A stretch of 60,318 nt of DNA, counting the filler, from Catajapyx aquilonaris (Eukaryota): assembly GCA_000934665.2 (NCBI GenBank). It is 2 parts of 2 records of this genome, joined end to end, with 100 filler letters (N's around TTAATTAATTAA, not from the genome) between each part and the next. Parts side by side here need not be neighbours in the genome. Positions count along the whole stretch, not along the records: positions 1 to 31,228 come from JYFJ02004836.1; 1 more part is not named here. One strand, written 5' to 3'. A program made the position numbers and the translations under genes. Under the pieces are notes generated by a model that was not told where the DNA came from, did not search any database, and was given only the letters and a program-made list of their open reading frames with translations. Positions 187 through 57,383 of the stretch are shown in pieces (within the stretch, counting starts at the first letter, position 1; each line of letters opens with the position of its first letter).

Positions 187-298
187 TACCAAGAATGGCA
201 TTCGCATTTTTTTTGGACAGTTTAAATATAAGCAAAATCATTCATTTGGTTCCATAATCGATTCATCCTGAGGTATAATCTTGTTTCAGAATACCACC

Positions 299-17296: not shown

Positions 17297-17427
17297 TTTT
17301 ATTACAAGTCATGTGATTTTTGTGATTAACTTTTTGTGGCAAGATCCTTCTTTGTTCCTCCTTCACAGAATGTCCAAAATGTCAGGCACAAATAAATGAT
17401 TGGTTTCTTTTGCAGACAGCAACCAAG

Positions 17428-19560
17428 ATGATGCAAATCAGCAATCAGAACTTTAAGAGCATCTTTCAAGACCTGCAGACTGACCAGTTCCACAAGGACA
17501 TCAAGATTGTGTGTAAGAATGGAACCCTCTATGCACACAGGGTCCTTTTGGCCACAGGGACTCCATTCTTGAAGGGCTTCCTCAAGGATCCAGCAGCCGA
17601 TTTGATAATCCTACCAGATTTTCCACTGACCGTTGTCAGCAGGTGGCTAGGTTTAGTTTATGCTGGAGAGTTACTAAGTGAGGAACTGGACCTGCATGGC
17701 TTTGACGAGTTGGTGACCGCTCTCAGCATCAGTGGTGGTGGAGATAACAGCAGATCTTTGAATGCAGTTCCTAATGGTGGGGGAATAGAAGAGGCTTTGC
17801 TTGTAGATCAGAACATTATGATGGATGAGGAGCCGATGATTGAATCAGACCCACTGCTTGCCACAAATGATGGTCGGCATGGTAATGTGGAGGTCATGGG
17901 GATTGGGGGGACCCAGCTGGAAGATATTCTGGAGGTTAATCTAGATGAGGGAAATGAATCCACAAGGACTGAAGATGTAGAGATGGAGGAACAGGAGGAG
18001 GCAGAGGTTGGAGAAGAGCGAGTGAGTGTTTCTGATATTATGAAGTCATTGTCTGCACCCAAGCACAACACCAAGAAACGCGTCTACCGCTGCTATGTCT
18101 GCTTCAGTGAATTTCATTCTACCAGCGCATTGTTAGCCCATGCTAAGAGCCATCAAGGTAAACTCATCTATAGGTGCAACTTATGCCTCAAACCATTCTC
18201 AAATGTCAAGCAAGTGCACAGCCACAAGAAGCGCCCATGCAATTCTGACCCTGTGGCGTCAAAAGCAAAGAAGCCCTCTCATCTTTCTCACCACAAGCCT
18301 AAACCTAAGCCAAAGAATACTTCTGCCAAGGCAGGTGAACGCTACACTTGCCTACAGTGTGGTGATAGTCTTTCTTCAGATGAGGCCCTTCGAGCACATT
18401 ACCGTCACTGCGCCAAACGCCACGCGTCAGTGGACTCAGTAGAGGACCCAGACGTTCCTCAACTACCACCCAGAAATCTCAACAAATGTCCAGTGTGCTT
18501 CAAGGCGTTTTTGACCTCCAGTGCACTTAACCTCCACCTTGATGATGCTCACAGTGACCCATCTCCATCATACAATGGTGATGAAGATGTGGAGGTTCTT
18601 GAAGTTGTCACTCGATATACTTGCCTGATGTGCAAACGCAAGTTCCAAAGTGATAAGGAGCTTATGGAACACCGTGAGTTGCATGGAGACAGAACAGTAT
18701 TTACTTGTGAATTCTGTGCTGACACATTTCATACGGAACTGGACTACCATAAGCATGTCACTACCCATCCAACAGGCTCTCATGTAACCCATAAGTGCTT
18801 GGTCTGTGAGAAGGTGTTGTCACGTCGTCAGAGCCTGGTAGCACACATGCGTGTGCATTACATTTTACCTGTAGCAGGCACAGCATCCAAACCTCAGCCT
18901 TCTAATACATCAACAACACCCTCACATGCAATTCCACCTCAATCTGCCCCCTTCCAACACTACATGCAAGCAAACAATGAGCACCAGTGCTCTGTCTGTT
19001 CACAGTCCTTCCCCGCACTGTCTGATCTTGAGTACCACCACACTTCCCACCCACTGAACTTTCCCTTCCAGTGCAACCGCTGCAAGAACTCCTACAGCAC
19101 CGCCAAGGAACTTTTGTCTCATCCTTGCCGGGCCCAGACTCTTCCCTCAGCTGCTCCACATCCCCCAGTACAATCCAGAAAGTTGCCTTCTCCCCATACT
19201 CCTCCTCCTCCTCCAACATTTTCACAACCAACCCCTAACACTGCTCCCATGCAAGACGAGCACCCAGAGAGAGCCAACTCAAAAAATCCTACTTTTTGCT
19301 TTGTGTGCCATCGTGACCTGGGGTCATATGTAATGTATGTGCATCACAAGAAGTCGCATCCATCGGGTTCACGGTACCGCTGTGACGTTTGCTTCCGGTC
19401 GTATGCCACTGCACATGATTGTCATCAGCACCGTAGCCAACACTTCAGTGCAATGATCTACGCTTGCCATTTGTGCAATCGTTCTTATCCACTAAAGCCA
19501 GCCCTTAATAATCACCTGAGGAAGAGTCATGGTATTTTACAGGGCCGCCAAAGTTATTGA
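17428..19560 (+). CDS. BTB/POZ domain + about 12 C2H2/C2HC zinc fingers (paralog 2), single coding exon
   Basis: BTB signature (DIKIVCKNGTLYAHRVLL...WLGLVYAG), an acidic linker, then about 12 C-x2-C-x12-H motifs. The ATG at 17428 follows an acceptor tttcttttgcag ending at 17415. Confidence 0.92.
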   Translation: MMQISNQNFKSIFQDLQTDQFHKDIKIVCKNGTLYAHRVLLATGTPFLKGFLKDPAADLIILPDFPLTVVSRWLGLVYAGELLSEELDLHGFDELVTALSISGGGDNSRSLNAVPNGGGIEEALLVDQNIMMDEEPMIESDPLLATNDGRHGNVEVMGIGGTQLEDILEVNLDEGNESTRTEDVEMEEQEEAEVGEERVSVSDIMKSLSAPKHNTKKRVYRCYVCFSEFHSTSALLAHAKSHQGKLIYRCNLCLKPFSNVKQVHSHKKRPCNSDPVASKAKKPSHLSHHKPKPKPKNTSAKAGERYTCLQCGDSLSSDEALRAHYRHCAKRHASVDSVEDPDVPQLPPRNLNKCPVCFKAFLTSSALNLHLDDAHSDPSPSYNGDEDVEVLEVVTRYTCLMCKRKFQSDKELMEHRELHGDRTVFTCEFCADTFHTELDYHKHVTTHPTGSHVTHKCLVCEKVLSRRQSLVAHMRVHYILPVAGTASKPQPSNTSTTPSHAIPPQSAPFQHYMQANNEHQCSVCSQSFPALSDLEYHHTSHPLNFPFQCNRCKNSYSTAKELLSHPCRAQTLPSAAPHPPVQSRKLPSPHTPPPPPTFSQPTPNTAPMQDEHPERANSKNPTFCFVCHRDLGSYVMYVHHKKSHPSGSRYRCDVCFRSYATAHDCHQHRSQHFSAMIYACHLCNRSYPLKPALNNHLRKSHGILQGRQSY

Positions 19561-22268
19561 TAACTATGATGCCTGAGGTGCTCAGTGTGTTCTGCTTATC
19601 GGTTGTGTTTACTGGTTTCAAAAGTAATATCTCTTGTTGCTGTGCCCTGGCATTTCTTACATTGTGGCTGGCAGCATCATAACCTGGGATATAATCACCT
19701 CTCCAAGTTCCCTACAGGAAAACTTAAACAAGTGCCAGATTATAAGTTGTATTAACTTCATGCTTTAAACTGCATTCTACTCGTAATTGGTCATACTCCT
19801 CATGTGACTTGAGTCTACTTTATATAGAAATGAATGTATAGCATCACAGGCTGGTTAAATAAGTATGGGGAGGGTCAAAATGTGCCCAAAACGTTAATTC
19901 ATGGTGTGAGTGATCAATGGTGAATTAAGATGCGGTTCATTTGGAAGAGAGGGATTAGTGGATGAAGGATCTTGGAGCAGTAAACAAAGTCTGCCACAAA
20001 TTTACAAACGCTCGCCTTTTGTCATATTTTCATCAATAATAATATTGGTAATTTCTCGTTCTTCCCAAACCCCAAAAGGGTATGCCAGGAACTAAGCAGT
20101 GACAGGGATTAACTTCAAACAACCCAAGGCATAAATTATAGATTAATCCAACAAAATTGATGAGAAGAAACTTTGATGTAACAGAAATGCAGATGATCAT
20201 GGTAACAACTGGACATTTCTCATGTTAAGTATGGGTTATCCAATCATGACATTCCTCTGCTTTGCATATGGACATGAATACCTTCCTCAATTATTACCAT
20301 GTATGCAGCTTGGAAGAGAAATCTTTGGTAATTATTTTTGCAGAACATGTGTTTCATAATTAGATTTTTGCAGTTTGGAAGCAGTTTTATTATCCAGATG
20401 ACGAATGAAGGATTTTTCTTTTTGATAGCTATAGTTCATGCAGGGGGAGTGAGTGGAAAAACCCTCCACATGCTGCAAATCGTGACTTTTGATTTATGTT
20501 TGGCTTTTTATTATGTTTGTGTCACTAATGTTGCAGTGGAATTTCTCTGCGATGGATCCTGGATACCCAGAAACATGTCCATTAGAGAATTTGTTCTTGG
20601 TGTAATTTTTTCATGACCCGTCCACTGTAGGCTTGATTCCCATATTATGTTAAGTTACTTGCAGGTGATCATTGACTTGTGCATTATTGACTTTACTACT
20701 GTAAGTGCATTTGTGTGAGTCTAATTCCAGAGGCGCAACTGGATTTGTGTGGATAAATCTGCCAACATGTAGAAAAGAAAAGCTGTAACTGCAGTGTGTG
20801 ATAATGTTGAGGTGTGCTCAACTCGCTGCATTCACCACATGTGGTCAAGCAAACATTCCATGCTTGTGGAAAATGGTCACTGGAAGGTCTAGGAGAACGT
20901 CCTAATTTGTTATGTATTAGAATAAGCATTTGAGTGGATTTAGTGAGGAAAAAATGTTCCAGGGAAAAAAATAAAGATTTCAAGTGCATCTTATGTGTAT
21001 TAGTCTTTTCAATTTTGAGAAAGGATCTGGAAGTAGAAATAAGTTCTCCCAACACATCCCAAGTCAAGATATATTTGAAGTACGAAGACATTCTCGTACA
21101 TTCTTGAAATACTGCCTATCGAGCACTCTGCACATAGTGGAAACTTGTCCATACAATATTTTTGTTTGCTCCCAGTGGAAGATTTTCAAGGTATTTTGTC
21201 ACGTGTAGTGGGAACTTGATAATTACAGAACATTTTTGTCAAGAAGATTTATTATACCATGTCCAGATTTCAATGTATGGTCTACTCCGGATATCAGAGA
21301 CTTCAAGGGACAGTAGAAATCTGTATAAAATAACCAAGGTTTCCTATACCGAATATACAGACAGGGCATGGTATGGAAGTATGCTGGGACCAGCCTTTCA
21401 AGTTGGCTACAACTGAAGGTTGCTTATAATCGAGGCTCTTATATCCAGAGTCAACTGTATTACACACGAGCCAAAACAAAAGGTGCTCTCAAAATTAATA
21501 TTCCATGAAGGAATGTTTCCTCCAGCACGAGATGAAAACTTGGAAAGTGCTCCAAAATAATGCATCCAACAAAATTCCTGACCGAGATTTTTTTGTCTGG
21601 AATCAAAAATTGTCATCTTAATATTGCAACCATGAGTTTGGGATTCATGGCTGAAACATATTCACAAACTTTTACCATAAGGAACACTTGAGTTTTGCTT
21701 ATTGCAAGTTAAAGATGTCGGGTTTTTCACTAATTGTGAGTTAAACCTGGCAGTATACGCAATATGTCAGAAATATGTGATTCATGTGTGTCACATTAAA
21801 GCATCAAATGAGTGAGACAAGTTCATTTTTTTGGCATTGTTTGCCTTTTATTTATGAAATAAAAAATAATCTTTTGCAAATATGAAGACATTGAGGTTGT
21901 GGTATTGCCAGAAAATCATAACAGAGTGCAGTATAACAGCCGTTACCCAAGGTGGCTGTTTGTCCACAAGACTGCATGCCAAACAATTCGTGTGACAGTA
22001 GTTTTATGTTCCAACAAGAAATATTCACTGCCTTTACAAGAGGCCATACTCGTTCTCACCATTTCTGGGGAAGTCCCACCGGATACCTCCCTTCCCATGG
22101 ACACCCATACCAGGCACCAGGGATCAGGAGCTATCCGTAAATCAAGGGTGGAGAGAGGCTCATTCTGATTTCCAAGAACTTTGTCGAAACTTCGAACCAA
22201 GCTCTACTTCAAGCCCTTGCCACAATTTAGCGGAATATTCCAGAGTACTAGGCAGAAAGTATCCATAG

Positions 22269-23164
22269 CCTCCTGAGACCCGGCGTCCAGTATACTGGAC
22301 ATCTGGAAAAGTTTTTTTGGCGCCAACTAGTGATGCCAACAGAAGTGTAATCTGTTGGTATCCCATGATTACAATCTGGCCTCAATAGCTGTAGCCACCT
22401 AGTGTCGAATATCTGACTTGGGCCGAGAAAATTAAATCGCGGAAAAAATGGCGGATGCCGCTGCAGAAGCAAGGCGCTCATCTGATAAGTTTTATTTTTT
22501 TCCTCATATTTAGAGTGCGATTTTCGTCAATGTAGGGAATGTCCTGGGATTCGCAAGGAATGTGCATTAGAAAATACGAAAAAAATTGTCTGTGACCATC
22601 TTTGTTGCTGTAGAGATCTGGTAATTTTCTTTTCTTCCTGAGACAAAATGTCCATTTGAATGGACATCCTATTTTTATTTTTTTTAGCTGAATGGGTGTG
22701 ACTTTTCTTTAAGTGCCTGTACCTATACACCCACAAGGAAGTGCGCTTTTCACTATGCAGTTCAGTTTCAAAATCTAGAATAGCAAGGTACCACTTTAGC
22801 GGGTAAGAAGGGAAGGAGCAAGTCCCATGCCTGGAGTGGTGGCGTTAAAAAATAATTTCATTTATCTTTAATTGTCTTCTGAGAGGAATTGCTACCACGA
22901 ATTCCACAAATGAATTTAAAAAACATTGTTTTGAGGATAGAGCACTATGTGAGTGATCCATTAAGGGGTATTTCAATTTTCAGCTCTCATCCGTTCTGCT
23001 TCTGTAGCAGCAAATTAATGCCAATGTTCTCATTGGTTGTTTGTCACCATTTTTGTGGATATTTTAAAACTAAAATTTTTTTCTCGTTTCTTATTGGGAA
23101 AATGTTCAGAAAATGCAATTGGAACTGATATTGCGTTACTCAATTCTTCTCGGGTCTCAGGAGG
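22269..23164. mobile_element. piggyBac-like non-autonomous element with ATAG target duplication
   Basis: Perfect 14-bp TIR cctcctgagacccg, with ATAG directly on both flanks (22265-22268 and 23165-23168). Confidence 0.7.
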
Positions 23165-23820
23165 ATAGTCAAAATTTATACTTTTTACCATCTTTACAAA
23201 CGTGAACTCCTGTATTTGGATACCTGCTTCTACCTATTCCTCATCAGATGAATGGGTCTTGCGTCTCAAAGCTCTTGTTGTTTCAAGATTATTGTAGCAA
23301 CCTCTCAGGGGTTAGGCCTTAGTGCGCTAGGTATAAGAGTGGGACGGATACCACAGCTAGGATGACTTGTACAAGTTGGAAATGCCCCGGAGCTGGAGGT
23401 TGAGCTTGGGTTCATGTTGATTATGTGAAGAACAATGAGTAAATTAAGATATTTCAAATACTGCTGATATGCCAGTCTGACCTAAACTGACACAGGTAAG
23501 AATACTGCACTGATGCGAAGAACAAATGTTGCATTTTACACACCACCATGTAATAAATTGATGTACAAAAGCATAATGTGCAGTATTGCATATCTCTACA
23601 CCTTAAGAAGTTCCAGGGACATAATAATTATGCCATAAAACTGTTGAGATTTTTGATTTTTGAGTGCCTCAGAAGTAGTGTTGCTCAGGATCAAGCTACC
23701 AATAAATGCAGTATGTGTCTGAAACAATACCTGAACCATCCCATGCAATTAATCCACCAACATCCATTAATTCTATCTTCATGTCCTGCTACATGAATTA
23801 AATATTCATGTTATTATTAA

Positions 23821-24685
23821 CCCCCTGGCTTTCATGGGGTCATAAGTGACCAAAGGGATATCAAATCTGGAGGTCAAAAAAGCACTGTGCATAAGTACTT
23901 GTGATACACTCGGATATTTATTGCATGCTTTCATTTGTGCAGTTGTATCTTGGAAGTATCAGCTAATGCAAACCAGAAATTGCACTCTTCGCAAACTGAA
24001 GTAAAATACATTTTTCCAATCCATTCCACAAAATGGTATGTGCAGAAGAAATTTCTCTTGCATATATGACAAAAATGCAGGAAAATGGTTACACCGGGAT
24101 CAAACAAATTTCAGTAATGGACTACTGTTATGGTCCAGAGAATCTACAGTAGATTTTCTACTACATTATACTTTTACTGTAGTCAATGGGCACAAAAAAT
24201 ATGACCCATAGAATTTTGACATTAGGAATTTCTGTGCAGGCCTCTGTGACGTTTCCACAAGTACAATGGTATTGCACATTCATAAATTATATGAAGATAT
24301 GGCTAAGGAATTGTCTGAAACTCAAACATCAAGTGCAGTTACCAGACTGCAATCCTACACGTGCATGAGTCAGCAATCCTGCCACCACTTTTCTGTAACA
24401 ACACAATGTATGAGAAGGTCATATGAATGAAATTAGTAACTGTTGTATTATTTCCAGTTCTGGCCAGGTGGTCCTGTCTTGGAAATACCTAAAAGGGTTA
24501 CAAAACTCACGTTTGAGCAAGTACCTGAGGCCCATGAAAGCAAAAAGCATGGCAACAATGCAAAATGGTGGTCCTGCTCAGTTTAAATGGAATTCTTTTA
24601 TTCTTCACAGTGTTTATTATTTGAGAATAAATAATATAAAAACCTCACACACATGTGCTATTCTTTTATAACATGTACCAGGGGG
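23821..24685. mobile_element. piggyBac-type MITE
   Basis: TTAA-ccccctgg ... ccaggggg-TTAA termini. Confidence 0.6.
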
Positions 24686-25081
24686 TTAAAGAGTGATCCC
24701 ATTCAATCACCAATTCTCTACAATACTTTCTAAACGCAACTGCTATAAATCAGTGTCTCTAGTAGTAAACGCATTCTGCCACCCAAAGGCAAAATGTCCT
24801 GTATGCATTTTTAAAAATATCAATTTCAAAGCTAGCCACTTGAAGCTGCACTTTGTATATTTTTGACTGCGGCATGTGACCAACAAAACCTGAGGTATTG
24901 GCAAAACAAAAATTGCGATATGAAGAGTCACAATGACTTTCCTCTCAACTTCACCAAGAGTAAATGTAATGTAGTTTGCCTTTGAGCAGCAGTATTATCC
25001 TCTTCTTGCACTTAAAATGGCCTTAACTTAACACAATGTTCAATTGGCAGTAGTCACATCTTGTCTTCTGGGGGTAGTTGC

Positions 25082-25721
25082 TTACTTTCCAGCATGCATT
25101 TTCTGGTGCTTCTGCAAGTGTGTCTTCTGGGTGAAGTCCTTCCCACAGGTGTCACATGCAAAGGGCCTGAGGCCCATGTGGATCATATCATGTCTTTGCA
25201 GAGCTCCTTTCTGGGTGAACCCCTTTCCACAGAGGGAACAGGTGAAATGCCGCCTCTCCTCCACACTGCCCAGGTGGATTCGCCTGTGGTATGCTAACTT
25301 GCACTGATACACAAAGGCTTTCCCACATGAGTCACACCGATGGGGCTTGCGTCCTGAGTGGGCCCTCTCGTGTCGGCTCAGCTGGGCCCTTTTGCCAAAC
25401 CGCGCCCCACATGTCACACACTCGTGAGATTTCTTTCCCCCCTCCTCTGAGCTTCCTCCACTGGCTGAACCTGGGCTGCCCCCGTGGTCCAGTCGATGGG
25501 CATGGAGTTCTGCAGCAGTGGTAAAACGCTGCCCACACAGGGCACAAACCTGCAGAGGTGGTTGCTCTGTCTGGGGTGGTGGTGGTGGCTGCTGGAGGGA
25601 GCCAGGGTGCTGCAGGTGGACATCCAGGGTCACACCATTGCGGGAGGTCACTACTTCTGCTTCATATGCCACCTCACCAGCATTCTGCAGGTTGGTGAGC
25701 TCTTCAGAAGTTTCCATTCCG
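25082..25721 (-). CDS. C2H2 zinc-finger protein, terminal exon with 5 fingers
   Basis: Five fingers: CALC, CVTC, CDSC, CSLC and CDTC, with TGEKP-like linkers (SGRKPH, MGLRPF). An acceptor tctgattcctcctacccaaacag precedes 25721. Confidence 0.9.
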
Positions 25722-26348
25722 CTGTTTGGGTAGGAGGAATCAGAGTGTTAATAATAATAATCTGCCACCTGCCTACATACAGTCAAAATGAAATGACATT
25801 GATCCTAACACAAATGTTGATCTTCATTAGATATTGCTTGCTCACTGTACTCGTAAATCTGAAGTAAATGAAGCTTTATCTGCGAAATGTGTCCACTCTG
25901 AAGGTATCATGTAAATTAGAGTCAGCATTTCAGTACAAATGTTGACATTTGCAGCCCAAGTTTATGGTTTTGTCCTTCCTTTCATCTGCATGAAAACGTC
26001 AGGTAAAAGGCTGCTTGTTAATGCAAACTAACAACAATTTATAGTGCAGTACAGTACTACTGTTACAAGGCTTCTGGTACAACTTTTTTCCCTTTATTCT
26101 CTCAGAATAATGATACAGAGTGCAGTTGTAAAAAAAAAGTTATGATTTGTCTTCAAGAGTGTAAGCTGATACAAGATGTGTTTGGTAAGTTTGCAGCCTT
26201 TTATATTGAACAACTGACAAATGTATGAATCTAATGATTTCTTCAGGTTTCAACAGTTACTATATAGGGCCCTGCAAAAACATAGTCTGTGCAGTATCTC
26301 AATTTTTTTTGGATTTAGAGACACTGATCCTTGAAGATGTCAAATTAC

Positions 26349-26499
26349 CTGGCAGCTTGAAGTAGACTGTTCCTAGCTATAGCCCCAGTTAGCACAGGCA
26401 TGTGAGAAGTTGCAGGGCTGCTGTCACACCAGTAGGTAACAGCAGTTGTCAACTCCTCAAGCGTGTGAAAACGCCTGGCATACAAAGGGTGCTTCAAAG
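26349..26499 (-). CDS. Candidate upstream exon of the zinc-finger gene, derived from a mariner transposase C-terminus
   Basis: Acceptor ttttttgttctgcccag and donor CAG/gtaatt. The open frame (A)LKHPLYARRFHTLEELTTAVTYWCDSSP...LQAA joins in phase to the exon at 25721. Confidence 0.6.
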
Positions 26500-26955
26500 C
26501 TGGGCAGAACAAAAAATCATATTAAACCATCAGCCAAAATGAAATTCTTAACACTTCAGTAGAGTGAAATCTGCCTGTAACAGCCTACAGGTAGGCGGAA
26601 ATTTGAACATTTGTTTTGTCCCAGCACAGGATTCTCACTGAATTTCTCTGTCACAAAGGAAGGGATTCTATTCACTGCTGGAAAGTTTAGAACAGAGAAA
26701 CTCTGCTAGGTTTAACGTTTGCAAAAGGCCTAATTACAACTGAATAATCTCTTATTATGGCATGACAATATTAAATTAGCTGAACAAAACTTAATAAGAT
26801 TCTGGAGGCATAATCACTTGTTGCAGTGCAGACAAATGCTCCAACTACTGTTATAATGTAATTTCCGATTTTCAAAGCATAAAATTCCGCTTCATCAAAG
26901 TTTTACTTTCATGTGCATTTGAAAAATAAAGGTCATAAGAAAAGGACTCTAGTAC

Positions 26956-27057
26956 CTTCCATTGCAACTTGTTTGATGTGAGGGGGTGCATTGTCAATAT
27001 GAAGGATGGCGCTCTGCTTGCTACCAGACTTCTTATTCTTTAAAACTGGCCGCTGAC
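26956..27057 (-). CDS. Candidate upstream exon of the zinc-finger gene carrying a DNAxxH transposase motif
   Basis: Acceptor ctcactacag and donor AAG/gtacta. 102 nt, phase 1-1, encoding GQRPVLKNKKSGSKQSAILHIDNAPPHIKQVAME. Confidence 0.5.
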
Positions 27058-27765
27058 CTGTAGTGAGCATCTCAACAAATCAGCTGCCAGGATGGATCAT
27101 GCACAATGCCAGTGATTAGGAAGGCTGATTGGCGCAGCTGGCTCTGAAAAATTATTAAAAGTTGTAACATCTCCAAGCTACCCTTAATATCATCAAACTA
27201 CTTGCTAAATAGAACCCCTGTGCAAGATCGTACACATACCTACGAGTACAAAAGGATATTTGAATTGGCAATAAGTAACATGTAATCTATTTCATAGAAT
27301 CATAAGTGACAGTTTTATTTGACAATGCACAACTACAAAAATCAGGTATTATCTGATCTAAAAATTTTAATGAAATATCATACAACTTGCAACCACCCAT
27401 TATGGTGATTAAAAAGTTGAAAAAAATTGCAAAATTAGAACAGGCCTATCCAAGAATAGATGTTCACAACTCCAACTCTCTTTAGGGGGAGGGGGGAATT
27501 ATTTAACTTTTGCTTTTGATATTATCAGGAACCTCCTCCACTATAAATTATTCAAGATTAACTTAAAAATCCTGGAGGAATTATACATTATTCACAACCA
27601 CTTTTCCACCTTGAAATATCATTCCAGCTCAAAAGTACGATCTATAAGGCCGGAAATTCAAAATAATAATTTCTCCTAAAAATTAACATGACCATAACAT
27701 TAACCATAGCTATAGAGTGTGAACCACAGATGTTTAACTCCCACATGACATAAACAGCATGTAAC

Positions 27766-27851
27766 CTGAATTTCTTTCCAGACTGTCAATGTCTGTACCA
27801 TAGTGCAGACCATTGTTGATGATGTTAAAGCCTTCCACTTGATGTACCTCA
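27766..27851 (-). CDS. Candidate upstream exon of the zinc-finger gene
   Basis: Acceptor tgttttgtgcag and a weak donor CAG/gttaca. The open frame EVHQVEGFNIINNGLHYGTDIDSLERNS is phase-compatible with both neighbours. Confidence 0.4.
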
Positions 27852-28665
27852 CTGCACAAAACAATTTTTTGACAGGTGTTAATATACGAGGAATTCAAAG
27901 GAGACGAGTTGATGGCGAGAGTAGGCCTACTTGATAAAGGTTTGAAAAATGTGGTATCAAAATATGGCTCAAAAAATGTTCAGATTGATATATGATTTGC
28001 ATCGAGTGGTAGCTCAAGATCTGATGGTTATGCAGTGGCAGGATATTGGTTATGTTGATTTTTTTGGAGGTACTAATTTAACTTAATTTATTTTAAACCA
28101 AATAGTCCTTCTCACAATTAGACAAAGTAATCTATACTCCCCCCCCAACTCTCAGGTTCAGAACTTTTTATATACAACATTCTCGCTTGCACATGTTTAT
28201 TTCCCAGCTACATACAATTCATTCACAATTACATACTTTCAATGCACTTAGTAAGCCCTCAAATCTGCCATCTGAATTTGTATTTGCCACTATCATATTT
28301 TAAAGTTCAAATTTACACCATCCAAAGTCACATAACAATTTTCTAGTGGCACAGGTAGAAAGAGGGTGTTAGGTAATCAGGAAACGGAAAAAATCAAACA
28401 AATGCACATGCTGTGTGTGTAAAGGTGTGTGACAAAAGCATTTTCAATGAGAGTGGCATTTGCTCCTATTTCAAAAATTGCATTTAGTTCAAGCTGACAT
28501 TGTTTTGATAATATAACATGGTGCACTGTCTTCTCAGAACCACTTGTGCTGGATAAATGTGAAAATAATAAAACATTTGAAATTAATTCAAGTACCCTGG
28601 CTTGCATCGGGCACAAAGATCCACTCGTTCGAGTGTCATTAACCACAATTACGTCTACGTTGCCA

Positions 28666-29343
28666 TCATGTTAGTCTACCCATATACTTGACCCTGGGCA
28701 ACCACTTCAACATTGGCCACTGGACCAAAATATAATTTGCAAAAGGTAGCAGAATCCACCCAGATAATGACAGGGATGTGACTCTGCAAATGCTCTCCAC
28801 AAAGATGACCTTTGCCCCTTTACCTATGCCAGCAAATCTGGCCAGAAATGCAAGGAAGCATATGGGAACACATGTTCCAGGCCCATTGGCAAGAACCAAA
28901 TCTGGATTGAAGCTTCGCAGTACTGGCCATGAGTGACGCAGTGAGATGAGAGTAGAATATACAGCAGTTAAGTACGATTGTCCCACATGTCTGCTGCGAG
29001 GGATTTGATGTGTTTGGTATGAGCCACATTTTGGCCCATACATAGAGGACCAATTTGACTCTAGGCATTCCACTCGGATCCTGCTTGACATGTCAGTATC
29101 TGCCAGCAAGTACAGACGCGGGGAGTAACTACAGGGGTTGACGGCACTCATAAGGCGAAGCATCTCAGCAGTGTGACCTCCAGATCCAATCACAACGAGG
29201 GTTCTAACAGTCTCACCAAGCTTCCTCTTTTTCTTCCCCAATGCTGCATCACCAACCCATGTACACGCAAATGTCCATAGCAGGCGCAGGAGAAACAAGC
29301 CAGAGAGAGCCAGGCACGTGGCAGTGCACACCGAGACTTCCAT
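28666..29343 (-). CDS. ALG14: UDP-N-acetylglucosamine transferase subunit ALG14, intronless
   Basis: An N-terminal hydrophobic helix, then the ALG14 motifs GSGGHTAEM, IPRSRHVGQS, PDLVLANGPGTCVP, FVESICRV..LSLSG and VQWP. An AG acceptor sits immediately before the ATG. Confidence 0.96.
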   Translation of the reverse strand: MEVSVCTATCLALSGLFLLRLLWTFACTWVGDAALGKKKRKLGETVRTLVVIGSGGHTAEMLRLMSAVNPCSYSPRLYLLADTDMSSRIRVECLESNWSSMYGPKCGSYQTHQIPRSRHVGQSYLTAVYSTLISLRHSWPVLRSFNPDLVLANGPGTCVPICFLAFLARFAGIGKGAKVIFVESICRVTSLSLSGWILLPFANYILVQWPMLKWLPRVKYMGRLT

Positions 29344-29654
29344 CTATAATCACTTATAGCAAGTATTCCAGTGTGTTGTGTCTTTTAGTTTTGGCTACAG
29401 AATCTAGAGCTCAGTACTTCATGGCATAACAGCCACTTCCCTATGAAATCATGGGAGAGTTTGTAGATTCCACAGGAACCTAGGAAAAACAATTAAGGGG
29501 CATTCACATACTGGTCGTGCGGCACCAAAAGGGAGCAAATGTGATCTCGGATAAAGGATGTCAGACGTTAGCTTGACAGTGTGAATAGCATGCTTTTGGT
29601 GCCCATTCCCAATGTGTGAATGCAGCTTGAGAGAGACCTTCTGCACTGCTTCAC

Positions 29655-29715
29655 CTTTCTAGTCCTGTGTGTGCCCCACTGCCCTCCAGAGGCGGGAAAT
29701 GAGTGGTGACCCCAG
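29655..29715 (-). other. Candidate shared upstream exon for ALG14 and the zinc-finger gene
   Basis: A long polypyrimidine tract ends in ggacag and the donor is AAG/gtgaag. The frame GVTTHFPPLEGSGAHTGLE is in phase with the exon at 27851. Confidence 0.4.
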
Positions 29716-30203
29716 CTGTCCAGGCAGGCAGGGCAGGCGAAGAGAGAAAAAGAGAGAGGGGGGGTCAGGCTCCCTCTCCTTCACCTCCGGGACCAGGCAG
29801 CCTCGGGGCCCAACCCTGGGCGCAGGACACCCCTCTCAGGACCCTGTCTGGGACTTCAGCGGAGAGGCAGGGGCAGCTTTCACCTCTCGGGATGGGAAAC
29901 GAGATGGATAGGCCAAAAGAAAGAAGCAAGGAGAGAGGCGGAAGGCAGCAGGAGAAGCTTCGGGGATCTGGCCGCAGGGAGGCGGCCAGGCGGGGGAGGC
30001 GGGCCGGACTCAGGCGACGCTGCTCGGAAAGGACTGGAACTCAATATATTATAGTACTGGGTCAAGACATTGGGGTGGCCTCACGCGCAGGATACGAGAC
30101 ACAAACTGGACCCGGCTTAGATCCGTGCCAGATCCGGTCTAGACCCGACCCAGAACCGACACATTATTTGGCTGTAAGCAGCCCATTGCCATCGTTGACG
30201 GCT

Positions 30204-30471
30204 TGACGGCATCGTTTTGTTTACCAACTCCTAGTCAACGGAAATCTGCCGAACACAACCCCTGGAACCCCCCACTTTTCAAGTTTCCGTGGATAAAATG
30301 CCATCAACACTCAACAATGGGAGCCATGGGAGCACAGTCATGTTCTTTTTGTTGACACTATTAGTATTGTTTCATGAAGCCATCTCCATGGGGGAAAAAG
30401 TGGGAGGTTCCACGTGTGGGTTCGGCAGATTTCCGTTGACTAGGAATTGGTACACAAAACGATGACGTTAA
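30204..30471. mobile_element. MITE with long TIRs
   Basis: catcgttttgtttaccaactcctagtcaacggaaatctgccgaac pairs with gttcggcagatttccgttgactaggaattggtacacaaaacgatg. Confidence 0.75.
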
Positions 30472-31228
30472 TGGCAAGTTAGCATGTCCTGCCTGTAGAG
30501 TACCCAAGAGAATGAAATGTCAGTATTTTAAGGGCGATAGCCCTTAAGTAAGACCGTAGCATAGATTTCAACAATGTTTCAACAATGAATTTTTCCTACT
30601 TGTTCTTCTTCTTCTTGTTGTTGTTCTTGTTACGTTTTTTTTATTCGCCCTAACTCAAGTTCTGCTGTAGGTAGAGCTTCCAAATTTTGAACACAGATTT
30701 CCACCGTCGTGACTTGATTTCCTACCATTTACACTTTTACTTAATTCGGCTTGGGTGCAGTTTAGAGCCGCAAAAATCTTGCAGGTTTCTATACATTTTC
30801 TGAATCTACTCGATGAGCTGAGTCGAATGACACTATTCCTTGTGTGCGGAAATGTTTGGTTGAAGAGTAATTGAATTTTGAAATTGCACGTTTTAACAAT
30901 GAATAAATTGAAAGTAAACAAGTGTTCCTTTGTTGAGACTGTTCACTCCCATTGTTGCGTCAGGTGATTCTCCGTGGAAACGTGAGAGATTCCATGGAAA
31001 CGTGCTGTGAGGGATGCTGAATGATGTAAATAAACGGTTATTCTTGGTTCGTTGGACATAGAACGAGAGTGTAGGAGTTTAATTTAACATCATTCAGGAG
31101 CGTCCATGGCCGAGGCATTGCATCGGTGCTTATCTAATACATATTTCTAGACGTATGTCTGTCTCTCCTGTTATTCGCTATGCAAATCCGTACGGAGGCC
31201 CCGACATATGCCCCAGGGGTTTCACTAG

Positions 31229-31328
31229 NNNNNNNNNNNNNNNNNNNNNNNNNNNNNNNNNNNNNNNNNNNNTTAATTAATTAANNNNNNNNNNNNNNNN
31301 NNNNNNNNNNNNNNNNNNNNNNNNNNNN
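31229..31328. other. Assembly gap with a TTAATTAATTAA linker
   Basis: Runs of N surround a 12-mer that gives stop codons in all six frames. Confidence 0.9.
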
Positions 31329-31719
31329 TAGTTGCTGCTACTGCATCCAGCAAACATGTAAAGTGAAGGGCATTTGGGCATTCAATATGACTCGTTTAAG
31401 GTTTTAAAATCTACACTGGCTCAATATTAACGGTAGACCTACAGCAAAACCTGGCTATCATGAAATCACTCTGTTCCACAACACTTTTCTATAGTGGTCA
31501 GGTTTTCATTACACTTGAAGGAAATACACTAAATATTCGGTTCTCTTCTGGACCCAAGTTCAGTAACTGACAATTTTATGCCATATCAATGGTCCATTTC
31601 CAGGTTTTACTGTGTGCTATACTTGGTATGAAGAATGCCAAATGACAAGGAAGGGTGAGAGGGGTGCAAAGTATCTTCTTACTTAAATAAACCATAATCA
31701 TCCCATATAATTAGCTCAC

Positions 31720-32164
31720 AATGTCAATGAAGTAACAGCCTGGCTCAATGGTAATAACCATCCTTGGCTCCATGACCCTGGCAGTCCTAAGTGACCTCTG
31801 ACCAGGAAGGGTTGGCCTCTCTGGGTGCCCTTGCAGGTAGCCTCCCACATCATGGGTATCGCACCCAAGGAAGTGTCCAAGTCCATGAGGCATAAACACT
31901 GCTGCCAGGTTGACTTCCATCATCTTATCCACATCACCCTTCACTACGCCTCCCTTCTTCAAACATTCCAGCAAGACCCGGTTGGCTAAAAGGTGCATGT
32001 CCAGCCAAGAAACACCAGGCTTCAGGGCTTTCAGAACAGCACGGTTGGCATCCAGGACAGCATTGTAAATCAGCCGCTGATCAGCCGTATACTTGCCATT
32101 GGCAGGGTATGAGCAGGTAATGTCTGACGTGTAGCAGTTGTATTCTGCGCCCATGTCAAACAAG
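31720..32164 (-). CDS. PEPD: Xaa-Pro dipeptidase (prolidase), exon 8
   Basis: [40 protein letters not shown] and [10 protein letters not shown] contain the M24B metal ligands. Boundaries are AG/GT. Confidence 0.95.
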
Positions 32165-32586
32165 CTAGAAAAATATTAATGTACAGAACACTGCCTGAGT
32201 AGACCTACATATTTTAGTGAAGCTTGGCCTAAATAGCACCACAACCTCCTTGAAAATATCAGGCCTAGAAAAGGTGACCACCTATAGTAGGTTGACTTGA
32301 GTCACACAGCAGCCTGATTGTCAGAGTTTGAATTATCACATAACATCAGCTCCAGTATATCCTCTATCCTGCTAATAATAAATCGCTTATTGTTAAGTTA
32401 CTCTGGGCAAATGAAGAGAAAGAGGTTGCTCCAATTGGCTTATGATGGGCCGATTGAATTACTGTATCATGTTTCTAGCAACAGGCTTTTGACACAAACT
32501 GTGAAACAGTAATGCTTCCTGTAGACTTCGATTGCACCTCCACTTGCTTCTTTACATGTGCAATCTAACTAAATATAAAACAAATA

Positions 32587-33092: not shown

Positions 33093-33276
33093 TATATACA
33101 CATCACCTCCACAATCCAAGACTCAAAATAATGTAAAACAATGCAGCAAGAGGTCACTGGACATCCTTCTTCCTCAGTAGAAGTTATGCATGACTAGCAT
33201 GAGATCATTTATTTTCTACAATTAAAGTTAATACATCCCCATCTAAATGGTAGATAAGAATCCCCATCATACATAC

Positions 33277-33546
33277 CACATATCTCCATCCTTCACTGTG
33301 CGATCATTGGGAGCCCCAGCATGACCATAATGGAGGATAGCCCCATTCTCTCCTGATCCGCAGATGCAGGTGTATGACATATTTCTGCACCCCCCATTGT
33401 AGTAAGAGTAGTGCTGAAAGATGGATTCGCACTGGTACTCCTTCATCCCAGGACGTATCTTGCGCATCACCTCCATGTGAGCCTTTGATGAAATTCGGTT
33501 GGTGTAACGAAGAACTTCTAACTCCATGTCTGTCTTGTGCACACGA
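33277..33546 (-). CDS. PEPD: Prolidase, exon 7
   Basis: [23 protein letters not shown]...[33 protein letters not shown], phase 2-2. Confidence 0.95.
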
Positions 33547-33979
33547 CTGGATAAGAACATATCAAACTTTCTGTTATTGAACAACAACAACAACAACAAC
33601 ATCACGACATTTCCCTATGAGGGGTAGTCAGCGATGAAGGGAGACGCAAGCTAACCCAACATATGAACTAATAAAACTCATGAAAATAAACCTAAAAACA
33701 ACCTGTCCCACCCCCCACCCCTGCCCACCTCAGACATCACCTTATCCTCAGACATATTTACTGTTATTTATTTTCTGTTATTGAAGCTTCTGTGAAATTA
33801 ATTTCTATACGAACAGTTGCACATCAATAACATGAAGGCACATTTTGTTCAGAGTTATATCACAGCTGTCCTATGAAATCCATTCATATGGTGTTTGGAC
33901 TAATGTAAGAATTTGCATTCGCAAAGTTTAGTTCACTTCTAACTCTTCACATTCACTTAAAATTATTATGGGAACTCAC

Positions 33980-55037: not shown

Positions 55038-55475
55038 TCACACATCCACACCGCACAATCCCACAGGTGTACAGGTCCCTTCATCCAGTTCCCTCAGCAC
55101 TTTTTTATGCCTCTGTCCGCCACTAGCCACGGCCAATCCTTCCTGCAGCCGCCTGACTGCCTCCTTGATCAGGCCTCCTTCTCGCAGAAGCACCTGCAGC
55201 AACTCATAAGGATCCTCAGGAACCTCCTTCCTGCCCCTGAGCTGCCCAGCATCTGCCCCCGAATTGGCCCCTACAGATGGCACCCTGTATGGTGAGGGCC
55301 TCTGCCTCCTCTGGCACCTTGACTTGAGAGAGGTGAGGCGCAAGTTCTCCTTGATCTCCGCCACCAGCTGGTCCACATCCCTGGAGAGGAAGTCTTGTCC
55401 AGTGGCAACCGTCTGGAAGGCAGCCGCAGCAGTTGCAGCACTAGCTACTAACGGGTCCTCCTCCTTGCTCGGCAT
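55038..55475 (-). CDS. FRAT: GSK-3-binding protein of the FRAT/GBP family, 145 aa
   Basis: All three conserved FRAT blocks are present in order: DVDQLVAEIKENLRL, RQRPSPYRVP and DPYELLQVLLREGGLIKEAVRRLQ. The start MPSK resembles the vertebrate start MPCR. An acceptor tatttgcag precedes 55565. Confidence 0.9.
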   Translation of the reverse strand: MPSKEEDPLVASAATAAAAFQTVATGQDFLSRDVDQLVAEIKENLRLTSLKSRCQRRQRPSPYRVPSVGANSGADAGQLRGRKEVPEDPYELLQVLLREGGLIKEAVRRLQEGLAVASGGQRHKKVLRELDEGTCTPVGLCGVDV

Positions 55476-56975
55476 GTTCTGCTGGGTAGGTGAGGAGTCC
55501 ACCGCCACTTGTAGGCAAATCAGGGTTGCAATTGCTTCTTCTTGGACTGCTGAACTCTTTTGAATCTGCAAATATACAATTAAGATGTTATTAATTACAA
55601 AAAATTTCCCACGGTCTGATATCGAATTTTGTGGGGCAACACCTTGACGCACAATCCCATGTGTAGGCCTACTGCCCAATGCACTGTGCTGGTACATACT
55701 GGTGGCACAATTCAAATAAAAACCAGACTGAAAGTACACACCGGCCCCAATTTCGAACGTAAACAAACCTACAAAAAATATCGATCCCACACCTACCAAA
55801 CGAAATTCCGCTGCAGAGTTATTGTGCCCCGAATTCAATGTCCTTTGTAAGCGGACCCCCACCCCCCATTTAAATCCCCACGTTGGAATTCCAAAAAGTA
55901 AACAAAGCATCCTCACAAAAAACCAGAATAGTGAGACGAGGGGTAGGGGGGTGTTGGGTGGTAGTGACGTAGCTAGGCTCCTACCTCCTTTCCTGTGCAA
56001 TGGCCGCGGTGTAGTAGATAGGAAGTTCCTCTCTTGTAGACTAGAATCGCACAGGAACACTGCTTAATTTGTGTAGTGATTGCACACGTTTTGTTGAGGC
56101 CGAGGGGAGGCGGGGCAGGTCGGGTTGTGGTGTAAGGGGGTTGGTGGAAGGCACTGGGGGAGGCGAGATCGCGGATGGATGCGTCCTTCCTGTGCCCCGA
56201 CCTGGGCCTCAATGAAAACAACGGGACTAGGGGACCTCCACTCCACCACTATGTTTTGGTACCGATCACTACTCGATTCTAAAACACGGCTGTATCCATG
56301 CGCACGGGGGGGAGGGGCCACGACCCAAACAAACACGTAGCTGCTATTGGCAGTAACATGCAGTATGCAAAATTATGATGATGTAAGCTGCATGATCAGT
56401 GCAGATTCACTATAACAGTGCCGTCTCAAAAAGTGTTAAACTACCATAAGCGTCAAATTATAATATTTAATCAGACTCTAACTAGAGACTCAAAACAGTG
56501 GCATTACTAAATAGTCTAAATAGTGCACTAGTGTAAGTGCGTAACTACTAACGCTACTACTAGCCAGCTACTAGCATACTAATAAAACTGCTACTTTTTC
56601 CATCTCTTTGTGTATCCTAGCATGTCCGGTAACCTACGCGCCGACAAAATAGTCCGTGTAAACAAACAGGGCTAAAAGCCCGGAACGGTCTCAGAGATGA
56701 GACCTCTCCTCAAAAAACAAGGTGTCGCTGAAATTTGGCTTTGAATATCTCCTAACAAGAGTCTGGGGCCACCCTTGCACAAAGGTAAACAACAACAAGG
56801 AAGAGCCTAGCCCAAGGTTGTTGTAGAGTTAGAGAGTTCTGCACTGTAGCCGCAACGGCGCTAGAAAACATTTGTAATAGTTGGCCACTAGGTGGCCATA
56901 GTAGTGTATGGCGGGCAGGTTTGAGATTGGTTTATAAATTCTAATGTTTAAAAAATTGTTTATTTAGGTTTAAAA

Positions 56976-57383
56976 ATGGACAGCCAGGTGCCCAGCACCT
57001 CGGGCATCTCGGTGAGCAATGGCAGCAGTGAGGACCCTCGTATTAATACCAGGCTGTACGTGGGTCTGCTGCCGGTCAACTACTGCGTCCAGGATTTCCT
57101 CAACCTCTGCCGACCTTACGGGGTGGTGCGAAGTGTGAAGATATCATTCAACAGTAGGAATACCAAGGCTTACGGTTTTGTCACATTCGCACGACCTCAG
57201 GATGCCCAGAGCTGCCAGAATGCACTTCACAACACCCTGCTGGCTGGACAGGTCATCAAGGTCAAGCATGCGACCAAGAGTGGGACTAGGACATGGAGGG
57301 CAGTGTTTTCTATTCCGAGTTCTTTGCCCTTGCCCGCAGCCATCCTCTATGCTGAAGCCAGGCACGTTTCCACACAGATTTAG
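56976..57383 (+). CDS. Single-RRM RNA-binding protein
   Basis: RNP2 LYVGLL and RNP1 KAYGFVTF, followed by AQSCQNALHNTLLAGQVIKVKHA. The ATG is in an aaaaATGg context after an acceptor-like tttatttag. Confidence 0.8.
   Translation: MDSQVPSTSGISVSNGSSEDPRINTRLYVGLLPVNYCVQDFLNLCRPYGVVRSVKISFNSRNTKAYGFVTFARPQDAQSCQNALHNTLLAGQVIKVKHATKSGTRTWRAVFSIPSSLPLPAAILYAEARHVSTQI

What the first reader, a model, noticed from the sequence alone, without database searches (positions are those of the whole stretch)
27766..29715. ALG14 appears nested on the same strand inside an intron of the zinc-finger gene, possibly sharing its first exon(s)
Seen: a 61-nt segment upstream of ALG14 (29715-29655) has a very strong polypyrimidine acceptor. 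It joins in phase to a segment downstream of ALG14 (27851-27766), which joins in phase to the transposase-like exon. ALG14 is intronless with an AG immediately before its ATG. The 25.7-29.6 kb stretch is CpG-poor, and the nearest CpG-rich promoter-like region is at about 29.8-30.2 kb. Inference: one promoter yields either ALG14 or the unrelated zinc-finger chimera by alternative acceptor and poly(A) choice. The start codon of the chimera is not secure. One candidate is MAMGCLQPNNVSVL near 30190 with a weak donor, and several other donors are also weak.
Basis: partly seen in the sequence, partly recalled or inferred. Interest (0 to 1): 0.7.

Follow-up and report, generated by a model that had tools for sequence, protein, structure and literature searches.

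The report
ALG14 and zinc-finger gene share leader
Two unrelated genes, the sugar-transferase subunit ALG14 and a five-finger DNA-binding protein, are spliced onto the same non-coding first exon in this arthropod genome, which is a known way of running two genes from one start and is not rare in this genome.

Summary
The core idea holds; most of its details do not.

Assembled contigs of one public run (X1, type not on record, but it behaves as RNA) join the same donor at 29655 (minus strand) to two acceptors:
- 29479, which gives a two-exon ALG14 mRNA. That contig stops 14 nt after an AATAAA.
- 27143, which removes the whole ALG14 exon inside a 2,511-nt intron and continues through 26499-26349 into the zinc-finger exon.

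So ALG14 lies in intron 1 of the zinc-finger transcript, and both share a leader exon.

What fails:
- The predicted junctions 29655/29343 and 29655/27851 were not seen.
- The 86-nt segment 27851-27766 is skipped and has no cover.
- No joint uses the 29715 acceptor.
- The leader adds no codons. It has no ATG, and a TGA lies three codons before the zinc-finger ATG at 27070.

The zinc-finger product is a 301-codon, five-finger C2H2 protein that starts in exon 2. "Transposase-like" rests only on weak language-model leads.

This is a new member of a known kind (CPNE1/RBM12, ChAT/VAChT). The scan had already noted similar leader sharing by other gene pairs on other pieces of this genome. TSS, isoform ratios and conservation remain open.

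The parts
29655..29905 (-). Shared non-coding leader exon. The 3' end (donor) at 29655 is exact. The 5' end is unknown; it lies at or below 29905, probably between about 29803 and 29905.
   Evidence: both contigs carry 30 nt of 29655-29684. Bin 29575-29905 has depth 20.9 and bin 29906-30236 has depth 0. No joint is listed at 29715; donor AAAG|GTGAAG; no ATG anywhere in 30060-29655.
29480..29654 (-). 5'-UTR intron of ALG14 (175 nt, GT..AG).
   Evidence: table 5: joint 29477->29653 with 'cut +2', ends CT..AC on the + strand; acceptor TTTTTCCTAG|G at 29479.
28182..29479 (-). ALG14 terminal exon. 5' UTR 29479-29344 with three tiny uORFs; CDS 29343-28666 (225 codons plus stop); 3' UTR; AATAAA at 28201-28196.
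   Evidence: record 6 (1,328 nt) is colinear over 28182-29477/9. PF08660, E 6.1e-53; uORFs at 29452, 29427 and 29422; AATAAA; the contig ends 14 nt after it.
27144..29654 (-). Intron 1 of the zinc-finger transcript (2,511 nt). It contains the whole ALG14 exon and its poly(A) signal.
   Evidence: table 5: joint 27143->29655, skips 2511, CT..AC; acceptor AATTTTTCAG|A at 27143.
26956..27143 (-). Zinc-finger gene exon 2. It holds a 6-codon uORF (ATG 27100), an in-frame TGA, and the main ATG at 27070. The coded part carries a DNAPPH motif that I recall as mariner-like.
   Evidence: record 4 piece 26956-27143. ORF and uORF. Atlas leads PF01359 (0.88) and PF13358 (0.87).
26349..26499 (-). Zinc-finger gene exon 3 (151 nt, coding).
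   Evidence: record 4 piece 26349-26499, with joints 26499/26956 and 25721/26349, both CT..AC; splice contexts.
24497..25721 (-). Zinc-finger gene last exon. Five C2H2 fingers, stop at 25084-25082, 3' UTR to at least 24497, AATAAA at 24618-24613 and 24602-24597.
   Evidence: record 4 piece 24497-25721 with 0 mismatches; zf-C2H2, E 3.7e-22..
27766..27851 (-). Not supported in this run.
   Evidence: a contig joins across it, and the depth of bin 27589-27919 is fully explained by record 5, which ends at 27749; no Pfam family in any of its frames.
29800..31099 (.). CpG-rich (unmethylated-type) region upstream of the leader; the candidate promoter region.
   Evidence: CpG o/e 0.61-1.05 here, against 0.00-0.46 in all windows starting from 24000 to 29600.

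Best explanation
There is one minus-strand transcription unit with a non-coding leader exon that ends at donor 29655.

- Proximal path. If the donor pairs with acceptor 29479, the result is a two-exon ALG14 mRNA. Its second exon is terminal and is closed by the AATAAA at 28201-28196.
- Distal path. If polymerase reads through that poly(A) site and the donor pairs with acceptor 27143, the whole ALG14 exon is removed inside a 2,511-nt intron. The mRNA then continues through exons 27143-26956, 26499-26349 and 25721-24497. It encodes a 301-codon protein with five C2H2 fingers, starting at ATG 27070.

The two proteins share no residues; only the 5' UTR, and probably the promoter, are shared. In alternative-polyadenylation terms ALG14 is a 'skipped terminal exon'. 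The choice is a competition between proximal splicing plus cleavage and distal splicing.

Shown: both junctions, the exon chain, the ORFs, and the poly(A) signal position.
Inferred: a single TSS and promoter in the CpG-rich region, the competition mechanism, and that both proteins are made.

I also infer that ALG14 is the old resident of this promoter and the zinc-finger gene a later passenger.
For: - Junctions. Record 4 (1,594 nt, 0 mismatches) chains 24497-25721 | 26349-26499 | 26956-27143 plus 30 nt at 29655. Record 6 (1,328 nt, 4 mismatches) runs 28182-29479 plus 30-32 nt at 29655.
- All 4 listed joints have GT..AG ends on the minus strand.
- Introns have zero or fully explained depth while exons are covered, so the run behaves as RNA.
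- Both contigs stop exactly 30 nt into the leader. As I recall the method, that is the k-1 overlap expected at a branch of a 31-mer assembly graph, so the leader is where the two paths diverge.
- Strong acceptors and donors at every junction.
- ORFs. In ALG14 a TAG sits directly before the ATG. In the zinc-finger gene a TGA lies three codons before ATG 27070, and the 301-codon ORF is open across three junctions.
- Domains: PF08660 at E 6.1e-53 and zf-C2H2 at E 3.7e-22.
- The leader has no ATG over 406 nt.
- The ALG14 contig ends 14 nt after AATAAA.
- CpG depletion is continuous in windows starting from 24000 to 29600 and changes only upstream of the leader.
- For the passenger reading:
  - The first 105 residues coded by the finger exon found no relative among 26 candidates.
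  - In 10 of 10 related ALG14 loci examined, out of 80 fetched, the match lies in one open frame of 211-250 codons, so an intronless CDS is common and need not mark a retrocopy.
  - 0 of 80 loci holds any match to the finger exon.
Against: - The evidence is one run of unrecorded type, seen only as contigs. Contigs cannot show starts, strand, level or rare forms.
- The contig that covers the leader itself was among the 80 pieces not displayed, so the leader's 5' end and the non-use of acceptor 29715 rest on the absence of a listed joint and on depth arithmetic.
- 12 loose ends were not displayed, so a further upstream exon cannot be excluded.
- An additional own promoter for either gene is not excluded.
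- The zinc-finger protein has no detected orthologue, so selection on it is untested.
- The conservation test is weak. The organisms of the fetched loci are unknown. Of the 10 loci examined, only two (L008, L009) reach the 3.6 kb downstream that is needed. The closest ones, at 50-53% identity, reach only 0.5-2.2 kb.
Confidence: 0.83

Rival explanations
1. These are two independent genes with their own promoters. The leader-to-27143 junction is a minor read-through (conjoined-gene) by-product of ALG14 transcription.
For: Read-through chimeras between neighbouring same-strand genes are common (general knowledge; PMC2568002, section 5, lists fusion-type pairs). Only one run was available. Contigs drop rare variants and show no starts.
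Against: Record 4 runs unbranched from the 3' UTR through acceptor 27143 into the leader. No contig covers 27144-27487 or 27750-28181, where an own first exon would lie (depth arithmetic). CpG depletion is continuous, with no CpG-rich island between 25.8 and 29.6 kb.
Confidence: 0.08
2. The shared leader and the splicing are real, but the zinc-finger arm is a young or decaying non-functional alternative 3' end, not a working gene.
For: - No relative was found for the first 105 residues coded by the finger exon or for the exon-3 peptide.
- The start exon looks transposon-derived, though only as leads.
- There is a uORF before the ATG.
- No finger array lies beside ALG14 in any of 80 fetched loci.
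Against: - The 301-codon ORF is intact across three splice junctions, and the stop lies in the last exon, so the usual exon-junction rule for NMD does not apply.
- Five fingers match zf-C2H2 at E 3.7e-22, with all Cys and His ligands in place by my reading of the translation.
- The contig is assembled at full length.
Confidence: 0.15
3. ALG14 is a retrocopy that landed in intron 1 of a pre-existing zinc-finger gene and borrowed its leader, so the host is the zinc-finger gene.
For: The coding sequence is intronless, and it is nested on the same strand.
Against: - ALG14 has its own spliced 5'-UTR intron.
- I read no A-rich tract directly after the contig end at 28182.
- The ALG14 match lies in one open frame in 10 of 10 related loci examined, so intronlessness is not special to this copy.
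- The zinc-finger gene, not ALG14, lacks detectable relatives.
Confidence: 0.07
4. Upstream coding exons (a start near 30190, then 29715-29655, then 27851-27766) join in phase to the transposase-like exon.
For: Acceptor- and donor-like sequences exist at 29715, 27851 and 27766. Two frames of each segment are open.
Against: - There is no joint at 29715 or 27851/27766, and a contig joins across the 86-nt segment.
- Depth is zero at 29906-30236.
- Stops occur in all three frames between 27143 and ATG 27070.
Confidence: 0.03

Closest known systems
CPNE1/RBM12-type promoter and 5'-UTR sharing in vertebrates (Yang et al. 2008, PMC2568002; I read the abstract and sections 5 and 12)
   Same: Two genes with unrelated coding sequences lie on one strand and share the most 5' non-coding exon(s), and presumably the promoter. 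The shorter gene has its own AAUAAA upstream of the longer gene's coding exons. The authors propose that polyadenylation and alternative splicing decide which mRNA is made.
   Different: The gene pair is different (ALG14 and a C2H2 protein). This is an arthropod rather than a vertebrate. Here the evidence is contigs of one run, not cDNAs plus RT-PCR in several species. Conservation is not shown here.
Cholinergic gene locus (VAChT inside the first intron of ChAT; passages of PMC3053374 read)
   Same: [quoted passage not shown] That paper says different mRNAs arise from multiple promoters and alternative splicing.
   Different: ChAT and VAChT act in one pathway and the arrangement is conserved from nematodes to mammals. 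ALG14 and a zinc-finger protein have no known functional link, and I found no conservation.
Su(var)3-9/eIF2-gamma fused locus of insects (Krauss et al. 2006, PMC1435931; abstract read)
   Same: It is an insect case of two functionally unrelated genes in one transcription unit, with one gene's exon lying in an intron of the other.
   Different: As I recall, the shared exons there are coding, so the two proteins share N-terminal residues. Here the shared exon has no ATG and adds no residue.
Host-transposase fusion genes made by transposase capture (Cosby et al., bioRxiv 10.1101/2020.05.07.082677; I saw only the search listing and the start of the abstract)
   Same: If exons 2-3 are mariner-derived, a DNA transposon supplied a splice acceptor and coding exons to a host gene.
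   Different: The abstract start says transposase domains are captured; that these are mainly DNA-binding domains is my recollection. Here only short pieces resembling the catalytic-core and tail region would be kept, in front of host-type C2H2 fingers. The transposase origin itself is not established.

Membership tests
Promoter/5'-UTR-sharing gene pair (CPNE1/RBM12 kind) | Two ORFs of unrelated sequence on the same strand | tested here: met
   PF08660 (Alg14) against zf-C2H2. Both lie on the minus strand.
Promoter/5'-UTR-sharing gene pair (CPNE1/RBM12 kind) | The same 5' non-coding exon is spliced to both genes' own exons | tested here: met
   joints 29655/29479 and 29655/27143, each with 30 nt of the leader; the leader has no ATG.
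Promoter/5'-UTR-sharing gene pair (CPNE1/RBM12 kind) | One common transcription start and promoter | not testable with these tools
   Contigs cannot show starts. The only CpG-rich region lies upstream of the leader.
Promoter/5'-UTR-sharing gene pair (CPNE1/RBM12 kind) | The upstream (shorter) gene has its own poly(A) site ahead of the other gene's coding exons | tested here: met
   AATAAA at 28201-28196; the ALG14 contig ends at 28182. No poly(A) tail was seen.
Promoter/5'-UTR-sharing gene pair (CPNE1/RBM12 kind) | The arrangement is conserved in related species | tested here: inconclusive
   0 of 80 fetched ALG14 loci hold a match to the finger exon. Their organisms are unknown, and the closest ones reach only 0.5-2.2 kb downstream.
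Cholinergic-locus kind (nested single-exon ORF in the host's first intron) | The whole nested ORF lies in one exon inside intron 1 of the host, on the same strand | tested here: met
   CDS 29343-28666 lies inside intron 29654-27144.
Cholinergic-locus kind (nested single-exon ORF in the host's first intron) | The two products act in one pathway | not tested
   I know of no link between ALG14 and a C2H2 protein. One paper search that included ALG14 listed no paper holding that term among the 15 shown.
Su(var)3-9/eIF2-gamma kind (shared coding exons) | The shared exon contributes N-terminal residues to both proteins | tested here: not met
   no ATG in 30060-29655; an in-frame TAG directly before the ALG14 ATG and a TGA three codons before the zinc-finger ATG.
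ALG14 (Pfam PF08660) | Full-length match above the curated cut-off | tested here: met
   179.8 bits against a cut-off of 27, profile positions 2-171 of 171; 1,238 relatives, the best at 49% identity (a cockroach); 40 invariant columns shared with 16 relatives.
C2H2 zinc-finger protein | Tandem C2H2 fingers with intact ligands | tested here: met
   zf-C2H2 at E 3.7e-22 and zf-H2C2_2 at E 1.5e-20. Five fingers by my reading of the translation.
Tc1/mariner transposase-derived exon (PF01359 / PF13358) | A significant match to the transposase profile | tested here: not met
   Searches gave no transposase family at E up to 10. Searches gave no PDB chain. One search gave none of 7 candidates. Only Atlas leads exist: PF01359 at 0.88 and PF13358 at 0.87, and PF13358 on 15% of one cluster at 0.91.
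Retrocopy (processed gene) | Intronless where relatives have introns, plus a poly(A) remnant | tested here: not met
   the match lies in one open frame in 10 of 10 related loci. ALG14 has its own 5'-UTR intron; no A-tract after 28182 (my reading).

The most novel reading that the evidence does not exclude
The zinc-finger gene is a young, lineage-specific gene. A mariner-type transposon fragment downstream of ALG14 supplied an acceptor and a start codon in front of a C2H2 array, and the new gene lives entirely off the leader and promoter of a housekeeping gene. Together with the other leader-sharing pairs that the scan noted in this genome, this would point to leader capture as a regular, operon-like route of gene birth and co-regulation in this arthropod lineage.
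Probability: 0.25. Interest if true: 0.55.

Novelty: new member of a known kind. Interest (0 to 1): 0.3.

Why it matters
It adds a junction-supported arthropod example of two unrelated proteins made from one leader exon by choice of splice acceptor and poly(A) site.

On its own this is an annotation point. ALG14 here has a 5'-UTR intron, and the zinc-finger gene starts at 27070 rather than upstream.

It gains some weight because the scan has noted several other same-strand nested pairs that share a first exon in this same genome. A systematic count could show whether leader sharing is a general mode of gene organisation, and of new-gene birth, in this lineage.

Tried and rejected
- Whole genome: not held for this window, so I could not search for paralogues, processed copies or other mariner copies.
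- RNA runs: no RNA holder is listed. One run of unrecorded type was offered and laid. I treat it as RNA-like only because of its GT..AG joints and uncovered introns.
- Parts without cover (29906-30236, 27750-28181, 25934-26264, 26596-26926) are used only where a contig joins across them.
- Relatives of the finger-exon N-terminus: 26 candidates, none scored.
- The exhaustive representative search with the 212-residue exon product was swamped by poly-finger proteins. 137,603 hits had E up to 0.001, and nearly all of the 150 listed matched only the finger part, from about residue 95 on. No orthologue could be picked out.
- Tests of the transposase likeness:
  - Pfam on 10 minus-strand frames of 26.3-28.1 kb gave two weak, unrelated hits.
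  - NCBIfam on 3 fragments gave one irrelevant hit.
  - PDB sequence searches gave 0 hits each.
  - A search among longer proteins gave 7 candidates, none scored.
  - A blastn of 25750-28200 against the window found no second copy.
  - Pfam on 124 further ORFs of the window found no transposase.
  - What remains is the resemblance I recall to the region around the second catalytic Asp and to the C-terminal tail of mariner transposases.
- Earlier notes of the scan: none near, none in relatives, none by sequence. For the word ALG14, the 8 notes shown of 37 were all prokaryotic.
- Synteny: the two Peptidase_M24 exon products and the three zinc-finger exon products found no tblastn hit in the 80 fetched loci.
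- The bacterial-type promoter and terminator scanner was not used, because it does not suit a eukaryote.
Full report
**What is in the sequence.**
- The window is eukaryotic.
- On the minus strand, 29343-28666 is an uninterrupted 225-codon ORF. It matches Pfam Alg14 (PF08660) over the whole model at E 6.1e-53.
- Its 1,238 relatives in the large protein collection are led by insect ALG14 proteins. The best is 49% identical, so the genome is arthropod, with no close relative in that collection.
- About 2.9 kb downstream on the same strand, 25747-25082 is open and carries C2H2 fingers (zf-C2H2, E 3.7e-22).
- Upstream on the same strand lie the last exons of a Peptidase_M24 gene (31714-32175 and 33270-33614).
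CpG observed/expected is 0.00-0.46 in every 300-nt window starting from 24000 to 29600. It is 0.61-1.05 in windows starting from 29800 to 30800.

**The decisive evidence.**
- No whole genome is held. Only one public run, X1, holds the stretch. Its type is not on record and it is kept as Logan contigs.
- Laid on 21300-31228, it behaves as RNA. Exons are covered, introns are not, and all four listed joints have GT..AG ends on the minus strand.
- Record 4 (1,594 nt, no mismatch) chains 24497-25721, 26349-26499 and 26956-27143. Its first 30 nt lie at 29655-29684, a jump of 2,511 nt.
- Record 6 (1,328 nt, 4 mismatches) is colinear from 28182 to 29479. It then jumps 175 nt to the same 29655.
- Both contigs stop 30 nt into the same upstream exon. 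As I recall the method, that is the k-1 overlap a 31-mer assembly graph leaves at a branch point. The leader is therefore the point where two mRNA paths diverge.
ALG14 lies inside intron 1 of the zinc-finger transcript, and both use the same donor.

**Corrected gene models.**

ALG14:
- Leader ending at 29655.
- Intron 29654-29480.
- Terminal exon 29479-28182.
- The 5' UTR part of that exon holds three uORFs of 2-3 codons.
- The ATG at 29343 is directly preceded by an in-frame TAG.
- AATAAA lies at 28201-28196, and the contig ends 14 nt after it.

Zinc-finger gene:
- The same leader.
- Intron 29654-27144, which contains all of ALG14 and its poly(A) signal.
- Exon 2, 27143-26956.
- Exon 3, 26499-26349.
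- Last exon, 25721-24497.
- The acceptor and donor contexts are strong at every junction.
- Exon 2 has a 6-codon uORF, then a TGA, then the ATG at 27070 three codons later.
- From that ATG, 301 codons are open across the three junctions, ending at 25084-25082.
- By my reading of the translation there are five fingers.

The leader has no ATG in 406 nt (30060-29655), so the shared exon is non-coding for both genes.

- The predicted junctions 29655/29343 and 29655/27851 are not seen.
- The AG before the ATG exists but is not the acceptor used.
- The 86-nt segment 27851-27766 is skipped. The depth in its bin is fully explained by a low-depth contig that ends at 27749.
- The 'in phase' joins cannot give a longer protein, because all three frames have stops between 27143 and 27070.
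- The proposed start near 30190 lies in a bin of zero depth.
- The 'very strong acceptor' at 29715 has no listed joint.
- Depth arithmetic on bin 29575-29905 also argues against a 61-nt exon:
  - Mean depth 20.9 over 331 nt gives about 6,918 depth-nt.
  - About 1,170 of these come from the two 30-nt overlaps.
  - The remaining 5,750 or so would need depth about 94 for a 61-nt exon.
  - They fit a colinear leader of about 150 nt at the summed depth of the two contigs, or up to 251 nt at lower depth.
- This is inference. The leader contig was among the 80 pieces not displayed, and 12 loose ends were not displayed either. I put about 70-75% on a colinear first exon that runs through the pyrimidine-rich tract.

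**How it most likely works.**
- One primary transcript starts upstream of 29655, and there are two outcomes.
- Pairing of the donor with the near acceptor defines a terminal exon, closed by cleavage after the AATAAA. This gives the ALG14 mRNA.
- Read-through of that site and pairing with the far acceptor discards ALG14 as intron. This gives the zinc-finger mRNA.
- Yang et al. discuss the same decision for CPNE1/RBM12 (PMC2568002, section 12).
- Shown here: the two junctions, the exon chain and the poly(A) signal position.
- Inferred: a single TSS, the competition itself, and translation of both ORFs.
- Contig depths (21.3 and 17.1) are not a measure of relative use.

**Which gene is the host?**
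- I read ALG14 as the old resident and the zinc-finger gene as a passenger.
- ALG14 has its own spliced 5'-UTR intron.
- In 10 of 10 related ALG14 loci examined, out of 80 fetched from metagenome contigs of unknown organisms, the match lies in one open frame of 211-250 codons. L003 and L005 are near-identical. An intronless CDS is therefore common and no sign of a recent retrocopy.
- The zinc-finger gene has no detectable relative for the first 105 residues coded by its finger exon.
- None of the 80 loci has any match to the finger exon.
- That test is weak. Of the 10 loci examined, only L008 and L009 reach the 3.6 kb downstream that is needed. The closest loci, at 50-53% identity, reach only 0.5-2.2 kb.

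**The 'transposase-like' exons.**
- Exon 2 codes a DNAPPH motif. Exon 3 codes a stretch that I recall as resembling the tail of mariner transposases.
- No test supports this at significance. These searches found nothing: Pfam, NCBIfam, PDB sequences, a search among longer proteins, a self-comparison of the window, and Pfam on 124 other ORFs of the window.
- The two Atlas look-ups give leads only. For exon 2 these are an arthropod cluster with PF01359 on 85% of its members at 0.88, and one with PF13358 on 53% at 0.87. For exon 3 it is a cluster with PF13358 on 15% at 0.91, rank 28.
- I keep mariner origin as a lead at roughly even odds. Any catalytic function is excluded in practice, because only two short pieces are kept.

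**Comparison with what is known.**
- The arrangement works like the promoter- and 5'-UTR-sharing pairs of vertebrates. Examples are CPNE1/RBM12 and more than 20 other human pairs (PMC2568002, abstract and section 5).
- It also works like the cholinergic gene locus, where the VAChT ORF is one exon in the first intron of ChAT (PMC3053374, passages).
- It differs from the insect Su(var)3-9/eIF2-gamma locus (PMC1435931, abstract). As I recall, there the shared exons are coding.
- If the mariner lead holds, it also touches transposase capture (bioRxiv 10.1101/2020.05.07.082677, listing only).
- One paper search that included ALG14 listed no paper with that term among the 15 shown. I claim nothing wider about print.
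- Earlier notes of this scan, which I did not check, report other same-strand nested pairs sharing a first exon on other pieces of this genome. These are ITFG1/GTF3C4, COP1/LAP3, YIPF5/PLEKHM2, THUMPD2/CNTROB and PITRM1/METTL25. This pair would be one more of a recurring kind.

**Verdict.**
- Observation: partly confirmed.
- Interpretation: right in its core, wrong in its junctions and in the coding chimera.
- Novelty: a new member of a known kind.
- Interest: modest (0.3). It would rise only if leader sharing proves to be a systematic, gene-birth-related feature of this lineage.

Noticed in passing
window 30203-30471: An imperfect inverted repeat with arms 30203-30280 and 30394-30471 (78 nt, 79-88% complementary, 113 nt apart). 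It looks like a MITE or hairpin element and sits about 300-550 nt upstream of the highest possible leader start.
   Followed up: partly
window 272-1255 (+) and 17326-19557 (+): Two long single-exon ORFs with a BTB domain followed by C2H2 fingers. These are further transcription-factor genes near the locus, on the opposite strand.
   Followed up: no
window 31714-32175 and 33270-33614 (-): Exons of a Peptidase_M24 (Xaa-Pro dipeptidase-like) gene. They end about 1.8 kb upstream of the leader on the same strand. No contig links this gene to the leader in the stretch laid, which stopped at 31228.
   Followed up: partly
window 22300-23300 and 30570-31230: Many short, divergent contigs (90-99% alike) pile up here and run on into unlike sequence. 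This suggests expressed multi-copy repeats (tables 2, 3 and 7).
   Followed up: no
It could be pre-mRNA, a minor exon or a repeat.
   Followed up: no
window 55041-56063 (-) and 56952-57380 (+): An ORF with a GSK-3-binding (PF05350) match and, diverging from it, an ORF with an RRM domain.
   Followed up: no
window 58158-58610 (+): An ORF made of many tandem repeats of a Tyr/Glu/Lys-rich unit of about 13-14 residues behind a signal-peptide-like start. It has no Pfam family.
   Followed up: no
window 26774-26902 (-): Inside the intron between zinc-finger exons 2 and 3, one frame reads a short SDY-containing stretch. I recall a similar motif near the third catalytic Asp of mariner transposases. 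If real, a decayed element would span both exons. No tool supports this.
   Followed up: partly
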